Below are positions 6,657 to 42,568 of a stretch of DNA of 64,000 bases, in pieces (the stretch's first letter is position 1; the number at the start of each line of letters is the position of its first letter). The position numbers and the translations under genes were made by a program. Source of the stretch: a virus (Duplodnaviria; Caudoviricetes); IMG/VR virus record IMGVR_UViG_3300029288_004596, positions 96,001 to 160,000 of that record. The stretch is one strand, 5' to 3'. The notes beneath the pieces were generated by a model. That model was not told where the DNA came from, did no database searches, and worked only from the letters and a program-made list of their open reading frames with translations.

Positions 6657-9323
6657 TTAGAATCCTTTTCTGGTGAAGCCTGTGTAAGAAGGGAGTTTTC
6701 TTCCAAATGAAGGTCTGATAGGTGAGTAGTCATCCTTTACTACCCTTATCATCCCTGGAACTTTCTCAGGTTCCTCTGAGAAGAACTCCTTAGTGGGTTT
6801 GACCACATAGTCTTCTGTGGCCACTACCTTGAAAGGATCCGCAAAATTAGTGTGCATGGCATGAGCCGCCAGCAATAAGGCGTCTATGATGTGTTCGTTT
6901 CTGCTGGAGTACTTTATGGAGTTGGCTGTGGTAGCCACTACTCTGTAACTCTCCAGTTGTCTGGTGAGTGTAACATGGTTCTTGGAGTATATAAAAGAGT
7001 TATCTTCAAACCATCTCACCACAGTATTAACCATGAAGGGCTTTATGGGTTTGGATACCTTGCCATCTACTGGGTCAAAGATCTCCACCCTATCAGAGAA
7101 GGTTATTCCTTTTATCTTGTTAGAAAGATTAGATGAGGGGTTTTCTTCCCCATACTTCCTGAGGAGCTCACACTGCACCTCTCCATATCCCCTGTCTATG
7201 TAGATAAACCTGGGATTGAAGAGTTCATTGAGTTTAATTATTTTCTGGATGGTATCTATAAGGACATACTCGCTCTGGTCAACCTCTTCACAGTAGGCCA
7301 CCATGTATTTCTTGAGTTCCTGTTCCAGTTTCAGTATGAGGATTGTGGGTCCGGCTTGGTATTTGTCCCAGTCCACTCCCATGGTATATATAGCTGGAGG
7401 TATTGTGTCTGTGAGAGTGAGATAATTATAAGAATGTGCAGCTCTGTCTATATAGGAGTTCCTGAATACCCCCTCGCCCACGTCCGGGAACTCAGCCAGG
7501 TATTCCTGGGTGAACATAGCTTCATTGGCTGAGAGGGCTCTGGCTGACTGTATCTTCTCGTCGTTCCACTCTGGGTTCTTGTCTACCCCTATGTGGATCC
7601 TGTCCCATCTGTGTTCTGCCTGAATAGTATCCTGGTTCTCAGTGGCCCACTTATAGTAAGTGCCCCTGTACTGCTGAGGAGTAGAGGAGACTATGGATAT
7701 AGGTTTCCTGGTGGAGTCGCCTTCCATGATAGGGGTTATGGCTGGCCAGTCTCCCTTGGTCTCTTCATCGTCAGCCAGGTAAGCGGCTTCGTCAATGATG
7801 ACCAGGTCTGCTGTCTGAGATCTTACAGCTGTAGCTTTTCTGTTGGAGGAAGCCCCTGTAGTGAATCCTGAAATCATGGACCCATTCTTGAAAGAGACCT
7901 GGAGATATGGAGCTTCTCTAAGTCTAGCCACCATATCTCCTAAAACAGGACTCACATTAATAAAGTCTTTTACCCTCTGGTAGATCTCCAGAGCTTTTGG
8001 TTTATCAGGGCAGACGACTAGGACCTTGAAGTTAGGTCTGGTGACTGCTGCCCACAGGGCTATAGCTGATAAGGCATGGGTGTTATGAGTGGGAGTATAG
8101 TTGTCTGTAAGGTAAAGTTCTCTAGGGTGGTCTACCATGATGCACTGCATCTCAGTTGAGCCAACCTTCTCTATCTTTACTATAGTCCTTCTAAGATACC
8201 TGGTTGGCAGCCCACCACACTTCTTCCTATCAAGATTGAATATCTCTAGTCCTTCTGGGACTCTAATATTAAGCCTGAACCTTACGCCTGTTACTTTTCT
8301 TGTTCCATTCTTTGTATATCCAGCTTCAGATTCAGATATTTTTACTTTACATCCTAGAGACCTACAAAGCTCAGCTGTGTCTTCCGCTAACTGTTTGCTA
8401 ACAGAGCAAAACTCAGCTTGTCCATTCCTTCTCTTGTCAGAGCTTCCATCAGTATCCATGAGTCCTCTAAGTAGCCATAGTCTATTCTCTATAGAGTTAT
8501 AGAGATACTCTTTTGGAATGAACTTGTTATGAGAGATCGTATTGTCTAGACTTAAAGCTTTTAGGCAGTTGAGGTTCTTTACATAGTAGGATGTAGTCCT
8601 GTTTTCTGGGTCTCTCCTAGAGATTTCTAATCCTGTTCTTTGTTCTATAGTCCTTATAATATCCTCATCGTCGCTAGTAATGGTCCTGGTGTTCATGTGA
8701 CCATCACCTAGCAATACCCCTAGGAGATATGGATCTATAGGTATATCTTTCTGTGTGTGAAGGATAGGAGATACTGGGTTAAGTTTATATTTGTTCTCAG
8801 TCCTATTGTTATAAGAGTAAGTTAAGTCTTCCATAATCTCTTTAGTAGTTAGGACTTTGTTCCCATACTGCTTCCGAGATTTTCCTCTTCCACCCTTCCA
8901 CCCCATACCAGTGAATACTTCCCAGAGGTGTTCGTCTCCAGCTTCTACATAGGTTCCATCATCCAAATGGATCCTGTATATATCTTTTACTCCCTGAGGG
9001 AATATGCCAGTTACTTTAGCTATCTCGCCATCAGGAGTACAGACTGTACTGCCAATCTTTAGAGATCCCATAGTGACAGGACCATCTGGAGTATAGACAG
9101 TAGAATACAGTGGAGCCATCTTCCCGGCTCTCCTGTGCACTCTTATAAGGATTCTTTTGTTCCCTGCCTTGAGGGAATCTATTATCCTGTTCTGAGCGTA
9201 GTTGAGAACTATGGGACCGTGGTTGGTGTCCTCGGGATTGTTTATAAAAGTCTCTATCCACTCCTTGGGGTCTTTGAATACTTCCTCTAAGAGCTCTAGA
9301 TCTTCCTGTGTATAATCGCTCAT
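6657..9323 (-). CDS. terL: Terminase large subunit, intein-containing
   Basis: Walker A RRAGK|T split by intein, Walker B VIIDEAA, SSTP coupling motif, QEYLAEF, nuclease MGVDWD and HIIDAL. Confidence 0.93.
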   Translation of the reverse strand: MSDYTQEDLELLEEVFKDPKEWIETFINNPEDTNHGPIVLNYAQNRIIDSLKAGNKRILIRVHRRAGKMAPLYSTVYTPDGPVTMGSLKIGSTVCTPDGEIAKVTGIFPQGVKDIYRIHLDDGTYVEAGDEHLWEVFTGMGWKGGRGKSRKQYGNKVLTTKEIMEDLTYSYNNRTENKYKLNPVSPILHTQKDIPIDPYLLGVLLGDGHMNTRTITSDDEDIIRTIEQRTGLEISRRDPENRTTSYYVKNLNCLKALSLDNTISHNKFIPKEYLYNSIENRLWLLRGLMDTDGSSDKRRNGQAEFCSVSKQLAEDTAELCRSLGCKVKISESEAGYTKNGTRKVTGVRFRLNIRVPEGLEIFNLDRKKCGGLPTRYLRRTIVKIEKVGSTEMQCIMVDHPRELYLTDNYTPTHNTHALSAIALWAAVTRPNFKVLVVCPDKPKALEIYQRVKDFINVSPVLGDMVARLREAPYLQVSFKNGSMISGFTTGASSNRKATAVRSQTADLVIIDEAAYLADDEETKGDWPAITPIMEGDSTRKPISIVSSTPQQYRGTYYKWATENQDTIQAEHRWDRIHIGVDKNPEWNDEKIQSARALSANEAMFTQEYLAEFPDVGEGVFRNSYIDRAAHSYNYLTLTDTIPPAIYTMGVDWDKYQAGPTILILKLEQELKKYMVAYCEEVDQSEYVLIDTIQKIIKLNELFNPRFIYIDRGYGEVQCELLRKYGEENPSSNLSNKIKGITFSDRVEIFDPVDGKVSKPIKPFMVNTVVRWFEDNSFIYSKNHVTLTRQLESYRVVATTANSIKYSSRNEHIIDALLLAAHAMHTNFADPFKVVATEDYVVKPTKEFFSEEPEKVPGMIRVVKDDYSPIRPSFGRKLPSYTGFTRKGF
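8082..9119 (-). mobile_element. Class 3 intein (346 aa) with LAGLIDADG homing endonuclease
   Basis: Starts MAPLYSTVYTPDG, block B GDEHLW, block F MQCIMVD, ends THN/T; LGVLLGDG and LRGLMDTDG motifs. Confidence 0.9.
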
Positions 9324-25254: not shown

Positions 25255-25276
25255 ATTTTAGTACAGCTGTACTAGA

Positions 25277-25580
25277 TTCGGGTGTCTATGCCCAGACGCT
25301 CCTACATAGACTTGACGGGACTAAGGCTATGACTGCTAACCATAGCTATATGCTGATCCTCTATCAGCAGGTTCCGAGACAAGGAGAAGAAACCTAGAGG
25401 ACTTGATAAAGAGGAGCTACCCCTAGTAACAGGTGGTATCCTCAGGGTTCAGTCCTACCTGGTGCATAGGACTGTTGATTAGGGTAGGGTCGCTGTGGTG
25501 TGACACAGACCGTAGGAGATAACAACCCAACTCCTGCCGAGATAAAGAGCTGGTAGAAATCCAGCGCCCTACCGTCAATC
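25277..25580 (+). ncRNA. Structured RNA ending in a tRNA-like cloverleaf (25483-25574)
   Basis: GGTAGGGT/GCCCTACC closing stem, CTGTG/CACAG, GTAGGAG/CTCCTGC, GCTGG-TAGAAAT-CCAGC T-arm-like hairpin; further hairpins upstream. Confidence 0.55.
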
Positions 25581-25593
25581 AAGGAGGTATATT

Positions 25594-32965: not shown

Positions 32966-33333
32966 AACCAAAAGAGATTGAAGAGATCTTGGATATGGTA
33001 GGCAAGAAGATTGCCACCATTACTACCCCGGCCATGAAGGCCACCTTAGAGGCTATGTTCTATAGCAGCGTGGTCCAGATAGGGGCTGGGATTGTTTTCC
33101 TGGTTCTGACTATCTTTATGATCAGAGCTATTATCAAGTGTAGGTGGCAGGCTGATGCTAACCAGGACAAGTGGACCTACTATACTGTCTGCACTACTAT
33201 CTATGTTTCTATTGGCGGCATATCTTTTATAGGGACCCTTATGTGTTTAGCTGATAGGGCTGCCTGGATAGGGCTGTTCTCTCCATCAGGGAAGTTAGCT
33301 TGGGTTATACTGTCTAAACTAACAGGGCAGTGA
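32962..33333 (+). CDS. Membrane protein
   Basis: Two TM segments, AGGAG RBS. Confidence 0.65.
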   Translation: MKPKEIEEILDMVGKKIATITTPAMKATLEAMFYSSVVQIGAGIVFLVLTIFMIRAIIKCRWQADANQDKWTYYTVCTTIYVSIGGISFIGTLMCLADRAAWIGLFSPSGKLAWVILSKLTGQ

Positions 33334-33338
33334 TACAT

Positions 33339-33527
33339 CAGGGAGTAGCTCAGTGGTAGAGCGCCTGTTGCAGTTCAGATGGTTAACCCTGACTGCAAGG
33401 ATTGCTATGGGGGAGATTCCACTGAAGGTATAATAGTTGACTGATCATCGCTACTATACTGGTTGGGGTTCCCATAGAGTCTTATGTAACATACAGGAGG
33501 TCCGGGGTTCAAATCCTTGCTCCCTGA
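33339..33527 (+). tRNA. tRNA (Val-like) with a 124-nt structured region in place of the 7-nt anticodon loop
   Basis: CAGGGAG/CTCCCTG acceptor, GCTC-AGTGGTA-GAGC D arm, CCTGT/ACAGG stem, CGGGG-TTCAAAT-CCTTG T arm, A73. Confidence 0.75.
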
Positions 33528-33531
33528 ATAT

Positions 33532-33599
33532 GGAAGACTTAGTTTAATGAGAAAACTATCGACGGGTAATGTGTGGTTTGATTCCCACAGTCTTCCCCA
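33532..33599 (+). tRNA. 68-nt tRNA-like RNA with 8-bp His-type acceptor, encoded CCA and truncated anticodon arm
   Basis: GGAAGACT/AGTCTTCC-CCA, GTTT/AAAC D arm, TATC-GACG-GGTA, GG-TTTGATT-CC T loop. Confidence 0.6.
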
Positions 33600-33613
33600 C
33601 TATAGGTGATACT

Positions 33614-33868
33614 ATGAAAATTGCTCTTACTATTGTTGTTGCTCTATTAGTACTGACTGTACTAGGAACCATCTTCCTTATCTATTACTCTTCAGATTCA
33701 GGATATATGATAGTTACTAGACACACCCCTAAGGGGGATGTTTCAACCACATACTCTGGTTACGTGGGCTATGATATATCCTGGAAGTATAAGGTGCTGT
33801 CCTTGGACTATGGGAAATATACATACTACTATGAGATAGATAACTGTGATGTTAGGGTGTACAAATGA
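33614..33868 (+). CDS. Membrane-anchored hypothetical protein
   Basis: AGGTG RBS, N-terminal TM. Confidence 0.65.
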   Translation: MKIALTIVVALLVLTVLGTIFLIYYSSDSGYMIVTRHTPKGDVSTTYSGYVGYDISWKYKVLSLDYGKYTYYYEIDNCDVRVYK

Positions 33869-38972: not shown

Positions 38973-39485
38973 ATGGATATTGCTAAGAAACTGGCCGAGA
39001 TAGTGGCCCCCTACAACTTTAAGCTTGAACTGAGAACTGAAGGAATCTACTTAGTCTTTCCTGACGAGACTGTCTCTGACAAGCTTAAAGGGTCAGCTAT
39101 AGAAGAAGTGGTTGACGGTGCCCTAGATATTGTTTCTGAATACTATACTAGTAGAATGAAAGGTTCACATAAGATTGTCACGGAAATAGCTCACACTAGA
39201 GACGAACTTATAGGCTGCAGGGCTGGTGATGTATACAGGGAACTCAAAAGCATCATACCAGTAGAGTGTGGCATTATAACCCAAGCCTCTTCAGGCGTCA
39301 TTAAGATATATTGTCATGGAGTCTTTACTGACATTAGCGTTCAGAGATACTACCTCCAGCATGGCAAGGATAGGTATATCTCAGCTATCAAAGAAGATGT
39401 GGCCTTTCTTATAGAAGACGGACTTCGTAAGCATGAGGTGGCGGTTGAGAAATCCAAGGAGGTCTTGGAGTTATTGAGGTCATGA
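38973..39485 (+). CDS. Hypothetical protein
   Basis: AAGGAG RBS. Confidence 0.65.
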   Translation: MDIAKKLAEIVAPYNFKLELRTEGIYLVFPDETVSDKLKGSAIEEVVDGALDIVSEYYTSRMKGSHKIVTEIAHTRDELIGCRAGDVYRELKSIIPVECGIITQASSGVIKIYCHGVFTDISVQRYYLQHGKDRYISAIKEDVAFLIEDGLRKHEVAVEKSKEVLELLRS

Positions 39486-39835
39486 GGATAGAGGACTCCC
39501 CAGCATATGATCTCTTTGACCATACTATCTTAGTCGCTGTATATGAAGGGGCGGATATTATCTGGGATAATTCTGGGGTGACACTCTTTGAAATCCTTGC
39601 TTACTTCCCAGATAAAGGGTTTAGTTTCAGGTCCTTCGCCTGTCAGTCCTTGGACTCAGTGGAACTTTATGCCAAGATTACAGACCGCATGTCCTTCGTC
39701 CCTACCAAGGATGAGATGTTGTTCCACTTGATATGGTGCCTTGATAGGCCAAGTATAACTATAGTGTCCAACTCCCTTATAAACTGGTGTGCCAGAAGGG
39801 AGGCTATACTTCCTGAGGAGAACTACGAAGAATGA
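39482..39835 (+). CDS. YEE-family paralogue 1
   Basis: ends ENYEE. Confidence 0.8.
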   Translation: MRIEDSPAYDLFDHTILVAVYEGADIIWDNSGVTLFEILAYFPDKGFSFRSFACQSLDSVELYAKITDRMSFVPTKDEMLFHLIWCLDRPSITIVSNSLINWCARREAILPEENYEE

Positions 39836-40179
39836 GAGTAGAAGGATCCCCTGTGTACAGATACTTTCCTGAGTTGGCTCTTAAGGTATATAAGGATGTA
39901 GATATCGTTTGGGACGCTTCCACCTTGGGGATCTGGAATGTCCTAGCTTACTTCCCTGATAGGGGCTATGGCTTCAGGTGCAACTCTGTTGACCAGGACG
40001 CCAAGATAAATTTCATAACAGGTTACATGGATTTTATCAGAGACCCTGATGATGTCATTGAGTATATGATGGAGCATGTTTCTGAAGAACACTTCGAGGA
40101 TTTTGAGAAGACCTTTTCACAGTGGCTTGAAAATAAGGCCGTAAGGGATATGTTGGCGGAAGGAGACTACGAGGAATGA
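39832..40179 (+). CDS. YEE-family paralogue 2
   Basis: ends GDYEE. Confidence 0.8.
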   Translation: MRVEGSPVYRYFPELALKVYKDVDIVWDASTLGIWNVLAYFPDRGYGFRCNSVDQDAKINFITGYMDFIRDPDDVIEYMMEHVSEEHFEDFEKTFSQWLENKAVRDMLAEGDYEE

Positions 40180-40526
40180 ATGTAGAGGATTCCATTATAT
40201 ATGAGATTCTCCCCAAGCTTGCCGTTGACGTATACTTGGAAGCTGATATTATTTGGGACATCTCAGATAGGAAAGTCCTGGAAGTCTTCGCTTACTTCCC
40301 CGACAAGGGTTTTGGTTTCCGGTGCTGTCTTATAGGGGACATTATATCTAAGTCTTATGTCACAAATAACATGAAGTTTGTAAAGACCCCCGCTGACGCT
40401 ATTCAGTACATGAGGAGGTCCCTTACTCCTGTGAGTTTTGCCTCCTTCCAGAAGGCCTTCGTCAAATGGATTGACAAAACTAACTATGTCGAGGGCATGA
40501 TAATAGGAGGAGACTGGGAAGAATGA
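40176..40526 (+). CDS. YEE-family paralogue 3
   Basis: ends GDWEE. Confidence 0.8.
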   Translation: MNVEDSIIYEILPKLAVDVYLEADIIWDISDRKVLEVFAYFPDKGFGFRCCLIGDIISKSYVTNNMKFVKTPADAIQYMRRSLTPVSFASFQKAFVKWIDKTNYVEGMIIGGDWEE

Positions 40527-40867
40527 AAATAGAAGACTCTCCAATATATGGACATGCCAGCCATGAGTCCCTGAATAGGGTCTATGGGTCAGCCGATATC
40601 ATATGGGATATCTCCACTAAGGGTTACCTTAAGATCCTGGCTTACTTTCCAGTTAGCCAGCTCTTTGGTTTCAGGTATTGTAAGATAAGCAGCAACCTTA
40701 CCGCATCTTATATCTTGAACTACATGCATTGGGAGAAGACCCCAGACTCCATGGTCAAGTATGTGAGGGGACTGGCATTCCCAGGAGATGTTGCTGGTTT
40801 TATAACCGCCTTTGCCAAGTGGATGGCTGATAATGCCTATGGAGTTGAGGAGAACTGGGAAGAATGA
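40523..40867 (+). CDS. YEE-family paralogue 4
   Basis: ends ENWEE. Confidence 0.8.
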   Translation: MKIEDSPIYGHASHESLNRVYGSADIIWDISTKGYLKILAYFPVSQLFGFRYCKISSNLTASYILNYMHWEKTPDSMVKYVRGLAFPGDVAGFITAFAKWMADNAYGVEENWEE

Positions 40868-41214
40868 ACATCAAAGATTGCGCTATAGCCAAGCTGGGAA
40901 CAGTGGGTTCTACCATAGCAGAGATATATGGCACAGAGAATGTGATCTGGGACTTTTCCCATGTGTCTTATCCTAGCTCTGTAGAGGTTGACATCATGTT
41001 CTTTATGGGTGGGCGTTATGTCCATAAAAGAGTGTGCATAGCCTGTCCAGCCTATGTCATTGATATCCTGGAGGATATGACTCTCCATGATATAGTCCTT
41101 GATAGTAAGGAAGCTTTATTAAAGTATGCTTTTAATCTGGACTCTAGCCTGGGGTTTAAGCATTATACCTCAGTGGTTGAGTCTTTGTGTCTCCAAGGGA
41201 ACTATGAGGAATGA
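40864..41214 (+). CDS. YEE-family paralogue 5
   Basis: ends GNYEE. Confidence 0.8.
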   Translation: MNIKDCAIAKLGTVGSTIAEIYGTENVIWDFSHVSYPSSVEVDIMFFMGGRYVHKRVCIACPAYVIDILEDMTLHDIVLDSKEALLKYAFNLDSSLGFKHYTSVVESLCLQGNYEE

Positions 41215-41567
41215 ATATTAAAGATTGTCCAGTGTATCAGCGATGGTCCAAGCCCACCTTATCCAAGGTGTATGAGGGCGCTGATATTATATGGGATGGC
41301 TCCAATGAAGAGCTCTTAATACTCTTAGCTTATTTTCCTGATAAGGGCTTTGGTTACAGAGCCTGTTCTTATAGCGTTTTGACTGAGAGATCTCTCCTGA
41401 AGAACATGCAGTATGAGGAGAACATCAACGACATGATTGAATACCTCTCAGAACGAGTTTCTACTGAGGAGATGGATACGCTGTCTGAACGTCTTGCCAT
41501 GTGGCTCATTAAACATAACTACACTATCATAGATGGAAAACTTGAAACTGGAAACTGGGAGGAATAA
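41211..41567 (+). CDS. YEE-family paralogue 6
   Basis: ends GNWEE. Confidence 0.8.
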   Translation: MNIKDCPVYQRWSKPTLSKVYEGADIIWDGSNEELLILLAYFPDKGFGYRACSYSVLTERSLLKNMQYEENINDMIEYLSERVSTEEMDTLSERLAMWLIKHNYTIIDGKLETGNWEE

Positions 41568-41569
41568 TT

Positions 41570-42568
41570 ATGGAAAGAGTTCTGGCTTCTATTAGGGAAG
41601 TGAGTGACATTGTCCCTATAGAAGGAGCAGATTTTATAGAAGAAGCTATCGTGGGCGGATGGCATGTCATAGTAAAGAAGGGCGAGTTCACCCCTGGGTC
41701 TCAGGGTGTGTTCTTTGAAATAGACAGCGTGTTGGACCCGGAGCTTCCTTGGGTAAAGGAACATGCTTCTTTCATGGAAGCCAGGTCTTGGAGAATTAGG
41801 ACCATGAAGATGAGAGGCGTCCTATCTCAGGGTCTTTTACTTCCTATGGATATACTTCCTGAGGTTCCAGAAAGTACAGACTGTACTGAATTGTTGGGGG
41901 TCAAGAAGTATGAGATTCCTGAGACTGTAGGCGACTTGACCAGCAGATCTGCTGGTCCATTCCCATCTTACATAGTATCTAAGACAGATGAGATAAGAGT
42001 TCAGTCTGTCATGGAAGTCCTAGATGAGCTATGGGGTAAACCTTATTATATCACTGAGAAAGCTGACGGTTCCAGCGCCACTTACCTGATGATAGATGGC
42101 AAGTTCACCGCCTGCTCCAGGAACCTTATGCTTAGAGAAGAGAGCGACTTCTACAGGGTGGGAGTGGAACAGAATATAAAGGGATTTCTGGAAGAGAATC
42201 CCCACCTGGTAGTTCAGGGAGAGTTTATAGGACCAGGAGTGCAGGGTAATAAGTACAAACTTAAGGCCCACAGCCTCAAGGTGTTTAATATCTTTGACAC
42301 TGGTCCAAGGGAGTACCTCCACTACAACTCTATAGTGGACTTCTCCCAGCATTATGGTTTTGATATTGTCAGACTCATGGCTTCAGGAAAATCCTTTGGT
42401 TTTTCTCTGGAAGAACTTTTAGTCATGGCCAAAGGCAAGTACCCTGGCACTAACAATGACATGGAGGGCATAGTGGTCAGGTCCTTGGAGAATATCTATA
42501 GCCCTACCCTTAGGGGTAGGCTTAGCTTTAAGGTCCTTAACAACAATGCCCTGCTTAAGGAGAAGTGA
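41570..42568 (+). CDS. ATP-dependent RNA ligase (DRB0094/Rnl2-like) with N-terminal OB-type domain
   Basis: PIEGAD, RGVLSQGL, motif I TEKADG, QGEF, VFNI, MEGIV, SFKV. Confidence 0.88.
   Translation: MERVLASIREVSDIVPIEGADFIEEAIVGGWHVIVKKGEFTPGSQGVFFEIDSVLDPELPWVKEHASFMEARSWRIRTMKMRGVLSQGLLLPMDILPEVPESTDCTELLGVKKYEIPETVGDLTSRSAGPFPSYIVSKTDEIRVQSVMEVLDELWGKPYYITEKADGSSATYLMIDGKFTACSRNLMLREESDFYRVGVEQNIKGFLEENPHLVVQGEFIGPGVQGNKYKLKAHSLKVFNIFDTGPREYLHYNSIVDFSQHYGFDIVRLMASGKSFGFSLEELLVMAKGKYPGTNNDMEGIVVRSLENIYSPTLRGRLSFKVLNNNALLKEK

What the first reader, a model, noticed from the sequence alone, without database searches (positions are those of the whole stretch)
33339..33527. tRNA whose anticodon loop is expanded by a ~117-nt two-hairpin insert
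Seen: canonical acceptor, D and T arms, but 124 nt between CCTGT and ACAGG forming two hairpins (TTGCAG..CTGCAA; CTATGGG..CCCATAG). Removing 33370-33486 (after a T, ending in G) gives the loop TT-AAC-AT, a Val-type tRNA with A73. The U|...G| boundaries echo group I introns, but the insert is far shorter than a group I core, I see no P7 motif, and the splice-site U would pair with A rather than G. Inference: a new mini-intron type (perhaps protein-spliced; an RNA ligase is encoded 8 kb away), a degenerate intron, or an unspliced tRNA mimic/decoy.
Basis: partly seen in the sequence, partly recalled or inferred. Interest (0 to 1): 0.75.

Follow-up and report, generated by a model that had tools for sequence, protein, structure and literature searches.

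The report
Phage tRNA split by 117-base insert
The only tRNA gene of an uncultured 217-kb bacterial virus carries a 117-base, two-hairpin RNA domain in its anticodon loop that fits no known intron class. It is either a tRNA look-alike that keeps the domain or a new kind of phage tRNA intron, and one genome alone cannot decide which.

Summary
Window 33339-33527 (+) is a canonical class-I tRNA body (Rfam tRNA 46 bits). ARAGORN in intron mode calls it tRNA-Val(AAC) with a 117-nt insert, 33370-33486, between nucleotides 32 and 33. It is the only tRNA-model hit in the whole 216,899-bp jumbo myophage.

The insert folds into two hairpins plus a 9-nt single strand. The fold is about 10 kcal/mol more stable on the transcribed strand, with z = -2.7.

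It matches no known class:
- No group I core, P1 U.G pair or internal guide sequence.
- No bulge-helix-bulge motif.
- No self-cleaving ribozyme family.
- No tRNA shape inside the insert.
- No second copy in the genome.

The phage encodes no splicing endonuclease, RtcB or clear polynucleotide kinase. Its Rnl5-type RNA ligase is also present in the only relative, which lacks this gene.

AAC is an odd anticodon for a bacterial virus. However, a separate tRNA-like RNA conserved in both phages also shows UAACA in an oversized loop.

I lean, weakly, towards an unspliced tRNA-derived RNA (0.4). The rivals are a new protein-dependent intron (0.3) and a dead gene (0.2). Earlier notes of this scan describe phage tRNA inserts on other DNA, but those are tRNA-shaped and this one is not.

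The parts
33339..33369 (+). 5' part of the tRNA body: acceptor 5' strand, D arm, anticodon-stem 5' strand (33364-33368) and U32
   Evidence: Sequence; ARAGORN with introns; Rfam RF00005 alignment, 46 bits
33370..33486 (+). 117-nt insert between tRNA positions 32 and 33. It is unique in the genome and matches no Rfam family.
   Evidence: ARAGORN intron call; Rfam E<=10 scan shows only the tRNA; no second copy; fold z = -2.73
33369..33397 (+). Hairpin 1. The stem UGCAGU/ACUGCA starts at U32 itself, followed by CAG/CUG. The tip is the self-complementary GGUUAACC.
   Evidence: RNAfold minimum-free-energy and centroid structures
33398..33483 (+). Hairpin 2: a long imperfect rod of about 35 pairs, about 7 of them G.U. 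Main stems are AGGAUU/AGUCUU, CUAUGGG/CCCAUAG, GAUUCCA/UGGGGUU and GGUAUA/UAUACU.
   Evidence: RNAfold. The + strand is about 9-10 kcal/mol more stable than the - strand.
33484..33492 (+). Single-stranded AUGUAACAU linking hairpin 2 to the anticodon-stem 3' strand. It contains the putative U33-AAC-A37-U38.
   Evidence: Unpaired in the minimum-free-energy and centroid folds; sequence
33487..33527 (+). 3' part of the tRNA body: UAACAU, anticodon-stem 3' strand, variable loop AGGUC, T arm, acceptor 3' strand and A73. No CCA is encoded.
33532..33602 (+). Adjacent mini tRNA-like element, starting 4 nt after the tRNA. It has a 7-8-bp acceptor stem, a D-like arm, a T-like arm with loop UUUGAUUC, no real anticodon arm and an encoded CCA. 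It is probably a processing signal or mimic. The next gene starts at 33614.
   Evidence: Sequence; fold; weak tRNA-Sec model hit, 13.7 bits, not significant; translation of the next gene
25270..25585 (+). Context: a conserved structured RNA of about 310 nt. It ends in a tRNA-like domain (25483-25574) whose 12-nt anticodon-like loop holds AUAACAA (25519-25525).
   Evidence: Sequence; alignment to relative G001 with 79% column identity and compensatory stem changes
41570..42568 (+). Context: Rnl5-type RNA ligase. A link to the tRNA is not shown.
   Evidence: Pfam PF21189 + PF09414; Naegleria gruberi RNA ligase 5cot, E 1.7e-51; 55% identical ortholog in G001

Best explanation
This is a real RNA gene derived from a class-I tRNA. 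I think the 117-nt domain most likely stays in the mature RNA.

Inferred working model:
- The block 33339-33602 is transcribed with the surrounding + strand genes.
- The tRNA body and the neighbouring mini-tRNA act as handles for the host's tRNA end-processing enzymes (RNase P and the 3' trimming enzymes) and stabilise the product.
- The product is a tRNA-like RNA of about 190 nt. The top of its anticodon stem is a three-way junction carrying a short hairpin with a self-complementary tip, a 35-pair rod, and a 9-nt single strand that exposes U-AAC-A.
- Its job would be to bind a partner that reads tRNA shape plus the UAACA/NAC element. That partner could be valyl-tRNA synthetase or a host tRNA-targeting factor. 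It would not read codons.

Shown: the gene, its fold, its uniqueness, and the absence of every known splicing signature.

Inferred: transcription, processing, retention of the insert, and the partner.
For: (1) No route for removal could be found.
- No group I core, P1 U.G pair or guide sequence.
- No bulge-helix-bulge at any junction that would rebuild a tRNA.
- No small-ribozyme family at E<=10.
- No tRNA-like shape inside the insert.
- No tRNA-intron endonuclease, no RtcB and no clear polynucleotide kinase in the phage.

(2) The anticodon would be AAC.
- In 65 tRNAs of four other large phages fetched here, A34 occurs only in Arg-ACG, and all three tRNA-Val are UAC.
- Established knowledge: bacterial TadA edits only tRNA-Arg(ACG).
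- GUU is only 19% of the phage's Val codons.

(3) The phage has no canonical tRNA at all but has two other non-decoding tRNA-like RNAs.
- One is the mini-tRNA 4 nt downstream.
- The other is the tRNA-like end of a 310-nt RNA. That RNA is conserved in relative G001 with compensatory changes, and its 11-12-nt loop keeps AUAACAA.
- That loop shares the pentamer UAACA with the single strand here. UAACA is under-represented in the genome, 139 seen against 223 expected.

(4) The insert's structure is strand-specific and better than shuffles. The full-length RNA keeps the cloverleaf.

(5) The block is packed tightly between two genes: 5 nt after a stop codon and 11 nt before the next start.
Against: - Removing exactly 33370-33486 restores a textbook 7-nt loop (U32, U33, A37), as expected for an intron.
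- The tRNA body keeps every elbow and core nucleotide (U8, A14, G18G19, U54U55C56, A58). The lineage's other tRNA look-alikes have degenerate D and T loops. That suggests a tRNA which is, or recently was, used as a tRNA.
- Phage tRNA genes with unexplained inserts of similar size are published (93 nt in Lak phage tRNA-Tyr; PMC6784885) and are read there as introns.
- No relative carries this gene, so there is no covariation or conservation evidence for the insert.
- The UAACA match is post hoc (my estimate p about 0.01).
- No partner is identified.
Confidence: 0.4

Rival explanations
1. It is a genuine intron of a kind not yet described. It has no ribozyme core and no bulge-helix-bulge. Cellular or phage endonucleases cut at U32|G (the foot of hairpin 1) and at G|U33 (3 nt after hairpin 2). 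A ligase then joins the exons, which the anticodon stem holds together, giving a working tRNA-Val(AAC). Because the phage has only a 3'-OH/5'-phosphate ligase and no end-healing enzymes, the cuts would have to come from metal-dependent RNases (RNase P, Z, III or E type), or else the host's RtcB would do the joining.
For: - Exact restoration of a canonical anticodon loop, and a fully canonical tRNA body.
- A73, A35, C36 and G45 agree with valine identity (from established E. coli identity rules; not tested here).
- The exon domain folds independently of the insert, as in protein-spliced pre-tRNAs.
- The U(-1)|G(+1) context at the foot of a helix is the context RNase P prefers (from knowledge).
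- An Rnl5 ligase is present.
- There is published precedent for unexplained phage tRNA introns (PMC6784885).
Against: - No recognisable signal exists for either cut. The insert is not tRNA-shaped and its two ends do not pair.
- The ligase is shared with a relative that has no such gene.
- Rnl5 enzymes are known as sealers of nicks in duplexes (from knowledge).
- AAC is an unusual anticodon for a bacterial system, and codon usage shows no need for it.
- There is one occurrence only.
Confidence: 0.3
2. It is a dead or dying gene. A once-normal phage tRNA was hit by a mobile insert, perhaps an intron that has since lost its core. It no longer gives a useful product, and what remains is a recent relic.
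For: - The gene is a singleton with no homolog in the only relative or in any collection searched.
- The anticodon is odd; it is one substitution away from the common UAC or GAC.
- There are two adjacent G.U pairs in the T stem.
- tRNA content differs completely between the two related phages, 0 versus 9-11, so tRNA genes come and go quickly here.
Against: - No decay shows in any conserved tRNA position.
- All 21 stem pairs are intact.
- The insert is strongly and strand-specifically structured.
- The element is packed tightly in a dense operon next to a second tRNA-like element.
- The UAACA motif is shared with a conserved RNA.
Confidence: 0.2
3. It is a self-splicing or self-cleaving RNA: a miniature group I-like intron or a pair of small ribozymes.
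For: - The 5' exon ends in U and the insert ends in G.
- There are short resemblances to the group I R and S elements (GUUCAGA near the 5' end, AUAGAGUC near the 3' end). These are my reading and are not significant.
Against: - No match to RF00028 or to any ribozyme family at E<=10 with permissive filters.
- The splice-site U pairs with A, not G. No guide sequence for CCUGUU and no P7 exist.
- 117 nt compares with 205 nt for the compact Azoarcus intron.
- The hammerhead-like CUGAUCA and CUGAAGG words lack catalytic residues (my reading).
Confidence: 0.04
4. It is an archaeal-type intron cut by a splicing endonuclease, which would make this the virus of an archaeon.
For: - The intron length lies within the archaeal range of 11-129 nt, and non-canonical positions occur in archaea (PMC4090602).
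- The 24-nt 5' core is identical to that of many Micrarchaeota tRNA-Thr genes.
Against: - No bulge-helix-bulge exists at or near the junctions.
- There is no endonuclease gene.
- The shared 24-mer is a generic D-arm/anticodon-stem core. It also occurs in bacterial tRNA-Val, tRNA-His and tRNA-Thr.
- The relative encodes a sigma-70-type factor, with a homolog in this genome at 173646-174368, which points to a bacterial host.
Confidence: 0.02

Closest known systems
'Enigmatic' introns in tRNA genes of Lak megaphages (Devoto et al. 2019, Nat Microbiol, PMC6784885)
   Same: An insert of unknown class sits in the anticodon loop of an otherwise normal-looking phage tRNA gene. The size is comparable (93 nt in tRNA-Tyr, Table S6). 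There is no Rfam classification, and the host is a bacterium with no known tRNA-splicing enzymes.
   Different: - Lak inserts lie just 3' of the anticodon as predicted. At least some contain a tRNA-like piece, and they recur identically across genomes with presence/absence variants.
- This one lies at 32/33, is two plain hairpins with no tRNA shape, would give the unusual anticodon AAC, and is a singleton.
Group I introns in bacterial tRNA anticodon loops (Reinhold-Hurek & Shub 1992; Azoarcus tRNA-Ile intron, PMC13168695)
   Same: It is located in the anticodon loop. The 5' exon ends in U and the insert ends in G.
   Different: It is 117 nt against 205 nt or more. It has no P1 with a U.G pair or guide sequence, no P3-P9 core, no G-binding P7 and no Rfam match.
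Archaeal bulge-helix-bulge tRNA introns (Yoshihisa 2014 review, PMC4090602)
   Same: The size is in range, the position is non-canonical, and the mature tRNA domain stays folded in the precursor.
   Different: There is no 3-4-3 bulge-helix-bulge at the junctions, no endonuclease, and the host is probably bacterial.
Natural and engineered RNAs that use a tRNA body as a handle: tmRNA, gammaherpesvirus tRNA-miRNA chimeras, plant mitochondrial t-elements, laboratory 'tRNA scaffolds' (from knowledge; not tested here)
   Same: A tRNA-shaped module gives processing and stability to an attached non-tRNA domain. In laboratory scaffolds the cargo sits exactly in the anticodon loop.
   Different: No natural phage example of a cargo domain placed in the anticodon loop of a complete canonical tRNA is known to me. 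ARAGORN's tmRNA search finds nothing, and the alanine identity pair G3.U70 is absent.
Non-decoding tRNA look-alikes of phages noted earlier in this scan (e.g. e1-5409231) and the conserved tRNA-like domain in this same phage (window 25483-25574)
   Same: The acceptor, D and T framework is kept while the anticodon arm is remodelled. The element in this phage shows the same UAACA motif in an oversized loop.
   Different: Those have extended or sealed anticodon arms and often degenerate elbows. This one has a perfect elbow and a 117-nt branched domain.

Membership tests
Elongator tRNA (Rfam RF00005) | Cloverleaf with conserved core and elbow nucleotides, scoring above the family threshold | tested here: met
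   46 bits against a gathering score of 29, model positions 1-71. U8, A14, G18G19, U54U55C56 and A58 are all present.
Elongator tRNA (Rfam RF00005) | Contiguous 7-nt anticodon loop carrying an anticodon used in the host's system | tested here: not met
   There are 124 nt between the anticodon-stem strands. After removal of the insert the anticodon is AAC. A34 occurs only in Arg-ACG among 65 phage tRNAs sampled.
Group I intron | Catalytic core (P3-P9 with the G-binding P7) detectable by the family model | tested here: not met
   No RF00028 match at E<=10 on 33200-33700 or anywhere in the genome.
Group I intron | P1 helix in which the last 5'-exon U forms a U.G pair with an internal guide sequence | tested here: not met
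   U32 pairs with A at the foot of hairpin 1. No sequence complementary to CCUGUU exists in the insert.
Group I intron | 5' exon ends in U; intron ends in G | tested here: met
   ...CCUGUU|GCAG...UUAUG|UAAC.
Archaeal/eukaryal protein-spliced tRNA intron | Bulge-helix-bulge (4-bp helix flanked by two 3-nt bulges) holding both splice sites | tested here: not met
   An exhaustive scan of junction pairs found none compatible with rebuilding the tRNA. Motif definition from PMC4090602.
Archaeal/eukaryal protein-spliced tRNA intron | A splicing endonuclease (PF01974) is available | tested here: not met
   None in the phage genome. The host is unknown, so host supply cannot be tested.
tRNA-shaped phage tRNA inserts (Lak type and earlier notes of this scan) | The insert itself folds like a mini-tRNA (paired ends, T-arm, sometimes CCA) | tested here: not met
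   No tRNA-like call inside 33370-33486, even at ARAGORN's 80% threshold or Rfam E<=10. The ends GCAGU... and ...UUAUG do not pair.
tRNA-shaped phage tRNA inserts (Lak type and earlier notes of this scan) | The same insert recurs in other tRNAs or genomes, with insert-free alleles | tested here: not met
   Single copy in the genome. No match in viral, metagenome or phage collections. Other assemblies of the same phage are identical.
Small self-cleaving ribozymes (hammerhead, HDV-like, twister, pistol, hatchet) | Match to the family's covariance model | tested here: not met
   None at E<=10 with permissive filters.
tmRNA | tRNA-like domain with G3.U70, plus a tag reading frame, detectable by ARAGORN | tested here: not met
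   ARAGORN -m finds none. The pair here is G3-C70.

The most novel reading that the evidence does not exclude
A bacterial virus uses a tRNA intron that is neither a ribozyme nor a bulge-helix-bulge substrate. Ordinary RNA-processing nucleases cut at the foot of two intron hairpins, leaving 3'-OH and 5'-phosphate ends. An Rnl5-type ligase seals the anticodon loop. This would be a third, so far unknown, way of splicing tRNA, and the first protein-only one in bacteria.
Probability: 0.2. Interest if true: 0.85.

Novelty: new variant of a known kind. Interest (0 to 1): 0.45.

Why it matters
Bacteria are thought to remove tRNA introns only by self-splicing. Interrupted phage tRNA genes that lack a ribozyme core are published but unexplained.

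This case is useful because it is clean. It is one gene with a perfect tRNA body and a well-folded insert that fails every known membership test, in a phage that has no other tRNA.

- If the insert is removed, it points to an unknown splicing route.
- If it is kept, it is a natural 'tRNA scaffold' carrying a cargo domain. Together with the conserved UAACA-bearing tRNA-like RNA of the same phage, it would point to a phage strategy aimed at a reader of tRNA-Val-like anticodon loops.

Either result can be tested with a simple Northern blot or RT-PCR.

Tried and rejected
Searches for relatives:
- DNA similarity to 50,697 phage records gave no match.
- Exon-plus-gap pattern in viral contigs gave none.
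- 3'-exon 22-mer in metagenome contigs gave none.
- The upstream 123-aa and downstream 84-aa neighbour proteins found only themselves. An alignment-based search for the downstream gene found only G001 in viral contigs and nothing in metagenome contigs.
- A full HMMER search with the 180-aa neighbour found only its own cluster and a paralog in the same genome.
- Two patterns from the conserved 310-nt RNA found only G001 or unrelated coding sequence.
- The major capsid protein search gave one distant contig.
- The ligase search did find the one true relative, G001. G001 has no interrupted tRNA and no DNA similarity to the insert.

Ideas rejected:
- Group I remnant, bulge-helix-bulge, small ribozymes, tmRNA and a tRNA-shaped insert (see membership tests).
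- IS200/IS605-type or MITE-like element. There is a single copy, the two hairpins are unlike each other, and there are no terminal repeats or target duplication.
- Kinship between the insert and the conserved 310-nt RNA. Shared 5- to 7-mers are at the level of random genome windows.
- Micrarchaeota as host or donor. The shared 24-mer is a generic tRNA core.
- Close tRNA donor among known phages. The best matches are 75-85% identical and belong to Pro, Trp and Gly tRNAs.
- ARAGORN intron calls in tRNA arrays of other phages are chimeras of neighbouring genes and were discarded.

Not possible:
Expression and the spliced junction therefore could not be checked, and no reads were laid.
- Whole-record search of the JGI copy of G001 was not possible; the IMG/VR copy was used instead.

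Full report
CONTEXT. The window is bases 96001-160000 of a 216,899-bp virus record that CheckV rates 93% complete. It is a tailed jumbo phage: it has a tail sheath, major head protein, portal, and a large terminase that carries a LAGLIDADG intein. Genes around the finding are small, closely packed and all on the + strand. The finding lies between a 123-aa membrane protein that ends at 33333 and an 84-aa protein that starts at 33614.

The sequence has a 7-bp acceptor stem, a D arm with A14 and G18G19, the anticodon stem CCUGU/ACAGG, a 5-nt variable loop, a T arm with UUCAAAU, and A73. There are 124 nt between the two strands of the anticodon stem.
- ARAGORN without introns finds no tRNA in the window or the genome.
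- With introns allowed it finds exactly one: tRNA-Val(AAC), with a 117-nt intron after position 32.
- Rfam's tRNA model aligns the whole element at 46 bits, E 1e-8. This is the only tRNA-model hit in the genome.
- Folding keeps the cloverleaf. It adds hairpin 1 (33369-33397), which starts at U32 itself, hairpin 2 (33398-33483, about 35 pairs, about 7 of them G.U), and a single-stranded AUGUAACAU.
- The insert folds at -40.3 kcal/mol (z = -2.73) against -30.5 kcal/mol for its complement. The structure is therefore better on the transcribed strand, as expected for an RNA-level feature.
- ARAGORN's intron mode does produce chimeras in tRNA arrays. Here there is no second tRNA, and the two acceptor halves pair 7 of 7.

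WHAT IT IS NOT.
- Group I. There is no RF00028 match at E<=10, either locally with permissive filters or anywhere in the genome. The U before the insert pairs with A, and nothing in the insert can pair with CCUGUU as a guide sequence. [quoted passage not shown]
- Bulge-helix-bulge. The motif is defined as a 4-bp helix between two 3-nt bulges (PMC4090602). An exhaustive scan found no such motif at any pair of cut sites that would rebuild a tRNA.
- Small ribozymes. No family matches at E<=10.
- tmRNA. None is found.
- tRNA-shaped insert, as in Lak phages and in earlier notes of this scan. Nothing tRNA-like lies inside the insert, and its ends do not pair.
- Repeated mobile element. The insert is single-copy.

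ENZYMES. The phage has no tRNA-intron endonuclease domain, no RtcB and no CCA-adding enzyme, and only a sub-threshold P-loop hit for a polynucleotide kinase. The RNA ligase at 41570-42568 belongs to the Rnl5/Naegleria gruberi family: Pfam PF21189 + PF09414 and 5cot at E 1.7e-51. From the literature as I know it, these enzymes join 3'-OH to 5'-phosphate at nicks. The family has thousands of members in bacteria and phages. The closest one (55% identical) sits in the relative G001, which has no interrupted tRNA. The ligase therefore does not mark this gene as spliced. If the phage ligase were used without healing enzymes, the cuts would have to leave 3'-OH and 5'-phosphate ends, which is the chemistry of RNase P, Z, III or E. 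This last point is inference.

RELATIVES. Only one relative could be found, IMGVR_UViG_3300037067_003400 (G001, 210,951 bp). Its major head protein is 60% identical, and 169 open reading frames of this genome find a counterpart in it, with long colinear runs.
- G001 has 9-11 ordinary tRNAs with encoded CCA. It has no tRNA-Val, no interrupted tRNA and no DNA similarity to the insert.
- All other searches for relatives failed.
- The other assemblies that hold the neighbouring genes are the same genome, base for base.
- So there is no covariation test and no insert-free allele.

THE ANTICODON. Only two ways of joining the sides give U33 and a purine at 37, and both give AAC. In my estimate random sequence would allow that about one time in seven. 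The restored loop is therefore suggestive, not proof.
- AAC is unusual. Among 65 tRNAs of four other large phages fetched here, A34 occurs only in Arg-ACG, and all tRNA-Val are UAC. This agrees with the established rule that bacterial TadA edits only tRNA-Arg.
- The phage has no cytidine/adenosine-deaminase-fold gene.
- GUU makes up only 19% of its Val codons.
- The tRNA has no close homolog among known phage tRNAs.
- Its 24-nt 5' core is a generic sequence. It is shared with many Micrarchaeota tRNA-Thr genes and a few bacterial tRNAs, so it says nothing about the host.
- G001 encodes a sigma-70-type factor, with a homolog in this genome, which points to a bacterial host.

A PARALLEL IN THE SAME PHAGE. 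This phage has two further tRNA-like RNAs and no normal tRNA.
- One is the mini-tRNA at 33532-33602. It has an acceptor stem, D-like and T-like arms, an encoded CCA and no real anticodon arm.
Window 25270-25585 is a 310-nt structured RNA, clearly homologous to G001 L037:715-1055. Column identity is 79%, although the proteins are about 50% identical, and the stems show compensatory changes.
- It ends in a tRNA-like domain whose anticodon-like arm has co-varying stems (GUAGGAG/CUCCUGC versus GUAGAGAU/AUCUCUAC). Its 11-12-nt loop keeps AUAACAA in both phages. That reads U-AAC-A, the same pentamer as in the single strand of the finding.
- TAACA is under-represented in the genome, 139 seen against 223 expected. 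I put the chance of this coincidence near 0.01, but it is a post hoc observation.
- The insert itself shows no k-mer kinship to that RNA.

WEIGHING.
- For an unspliced tRNA-derived RNA: no removal route, the odd anticodon, no demand for it, and a phage that makes tRNA look-alikes but no tRNAs. One of those look-alikes is conserved and displays the same motif in a loop too large to decode.
- For an intron: exact restoration of a canonical loop, a flawless tRNA elbow that the other look-alikes lack, and the published Lak precedent. There a 93-nt insert interrupts tRNA-Tyr, and the authors call the introns enigmatic (PMC6784885).
- For a relic: singleton status and rapid tRNA turnover in this lineage.
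- My odds are 0.40 unspliced, 0.30 new protein-dependent intron, 0.20 relic, and about 0.06 for ribozyme or archaeal-type splicing. The rest is unassigned.

NOVELTY. Interrupted phage tRNA genes of unknown mechanism are already in print, and this scan has noted tRNA-shaped inserts on other DNA. This case differs in position (32/33), in architecture (two plain hairpins, not tRNA-shaped), in anticodon, and in being the phage's only tRNA. I class it as a new variant of a known kind. It is of moderate interest until RNA data exist.

Noticed in passing
window 25270-25585 (+); G001 locus L037:715-1055: A structured, ORF-free RNA of about 310 nt is conserved between the two phages at 79% column identity, with compensatory stem changes. 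It ends in a tRNA-like domain of about 92 nt (window 25483-25574) with degenerate D and T loops and an 11-12-nt loop holding the invariant AUAACAA. No Rfam family matches.
   Followed up: partly
window 33532-33602 (+): A mini tRNA-like element lies 4 nt after the interrupted tRNA. It has a 7-8-bp acceptor stem, D-like arm, T-like arm (loop UUUGAUUC), encoded CCA and no real anticodon arm. No homolog was found in G001. It could be a processing signal for the downstream mRNA.
   Followed up: partly
whole genome and G001: ATA makes up 65% (this phage) and 63% (G001) of isoleucine codons in long ORFs, although neither phage was seen to carry a tRNA-Ile(UAU).
   Followed up: no
window 6657-9323 (-): The large terminase subunit is interrupted by a LAGLIDADG/Hom_end intein.
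   Followed up: no
G001:84891-85128 (locus L035): The relative has a cluster of odd tRNAs. One is a 60-nt tRNA-model hit. Another has an 8-nt anticodon loop that ARAGORN reads as the four-base anticodon UGAA.
   Followed up: no
window 33370-33444 (+): Read from the first base of the insert (GCA), the frame is open for 24 codons and ends in UGA. The tip of hairpin 1, GGUUAACC, is self-complementary and could form a kissing dimer. Both may be chance.
   Followed up: no
loci L047-L126: The 24-mer GTAGCTCAGTGGTAGAGCGCCTGT is identical in about 65 Micrarchaeota tRNA genes, mostly tRNA-Thr. Many of those genes carry canonical introns of 12-79 nt.
   Followed up: partly
window 39482-41567 and around the ligase; G001 locus L007:8966-9992: In G001 the ligase is preceded by two Macro-domain genes. 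In this phage it follows a run of paralogous genes of about 115-118 aa. The ligase neighbourhood is therefore not conserved.
   Followed up: no
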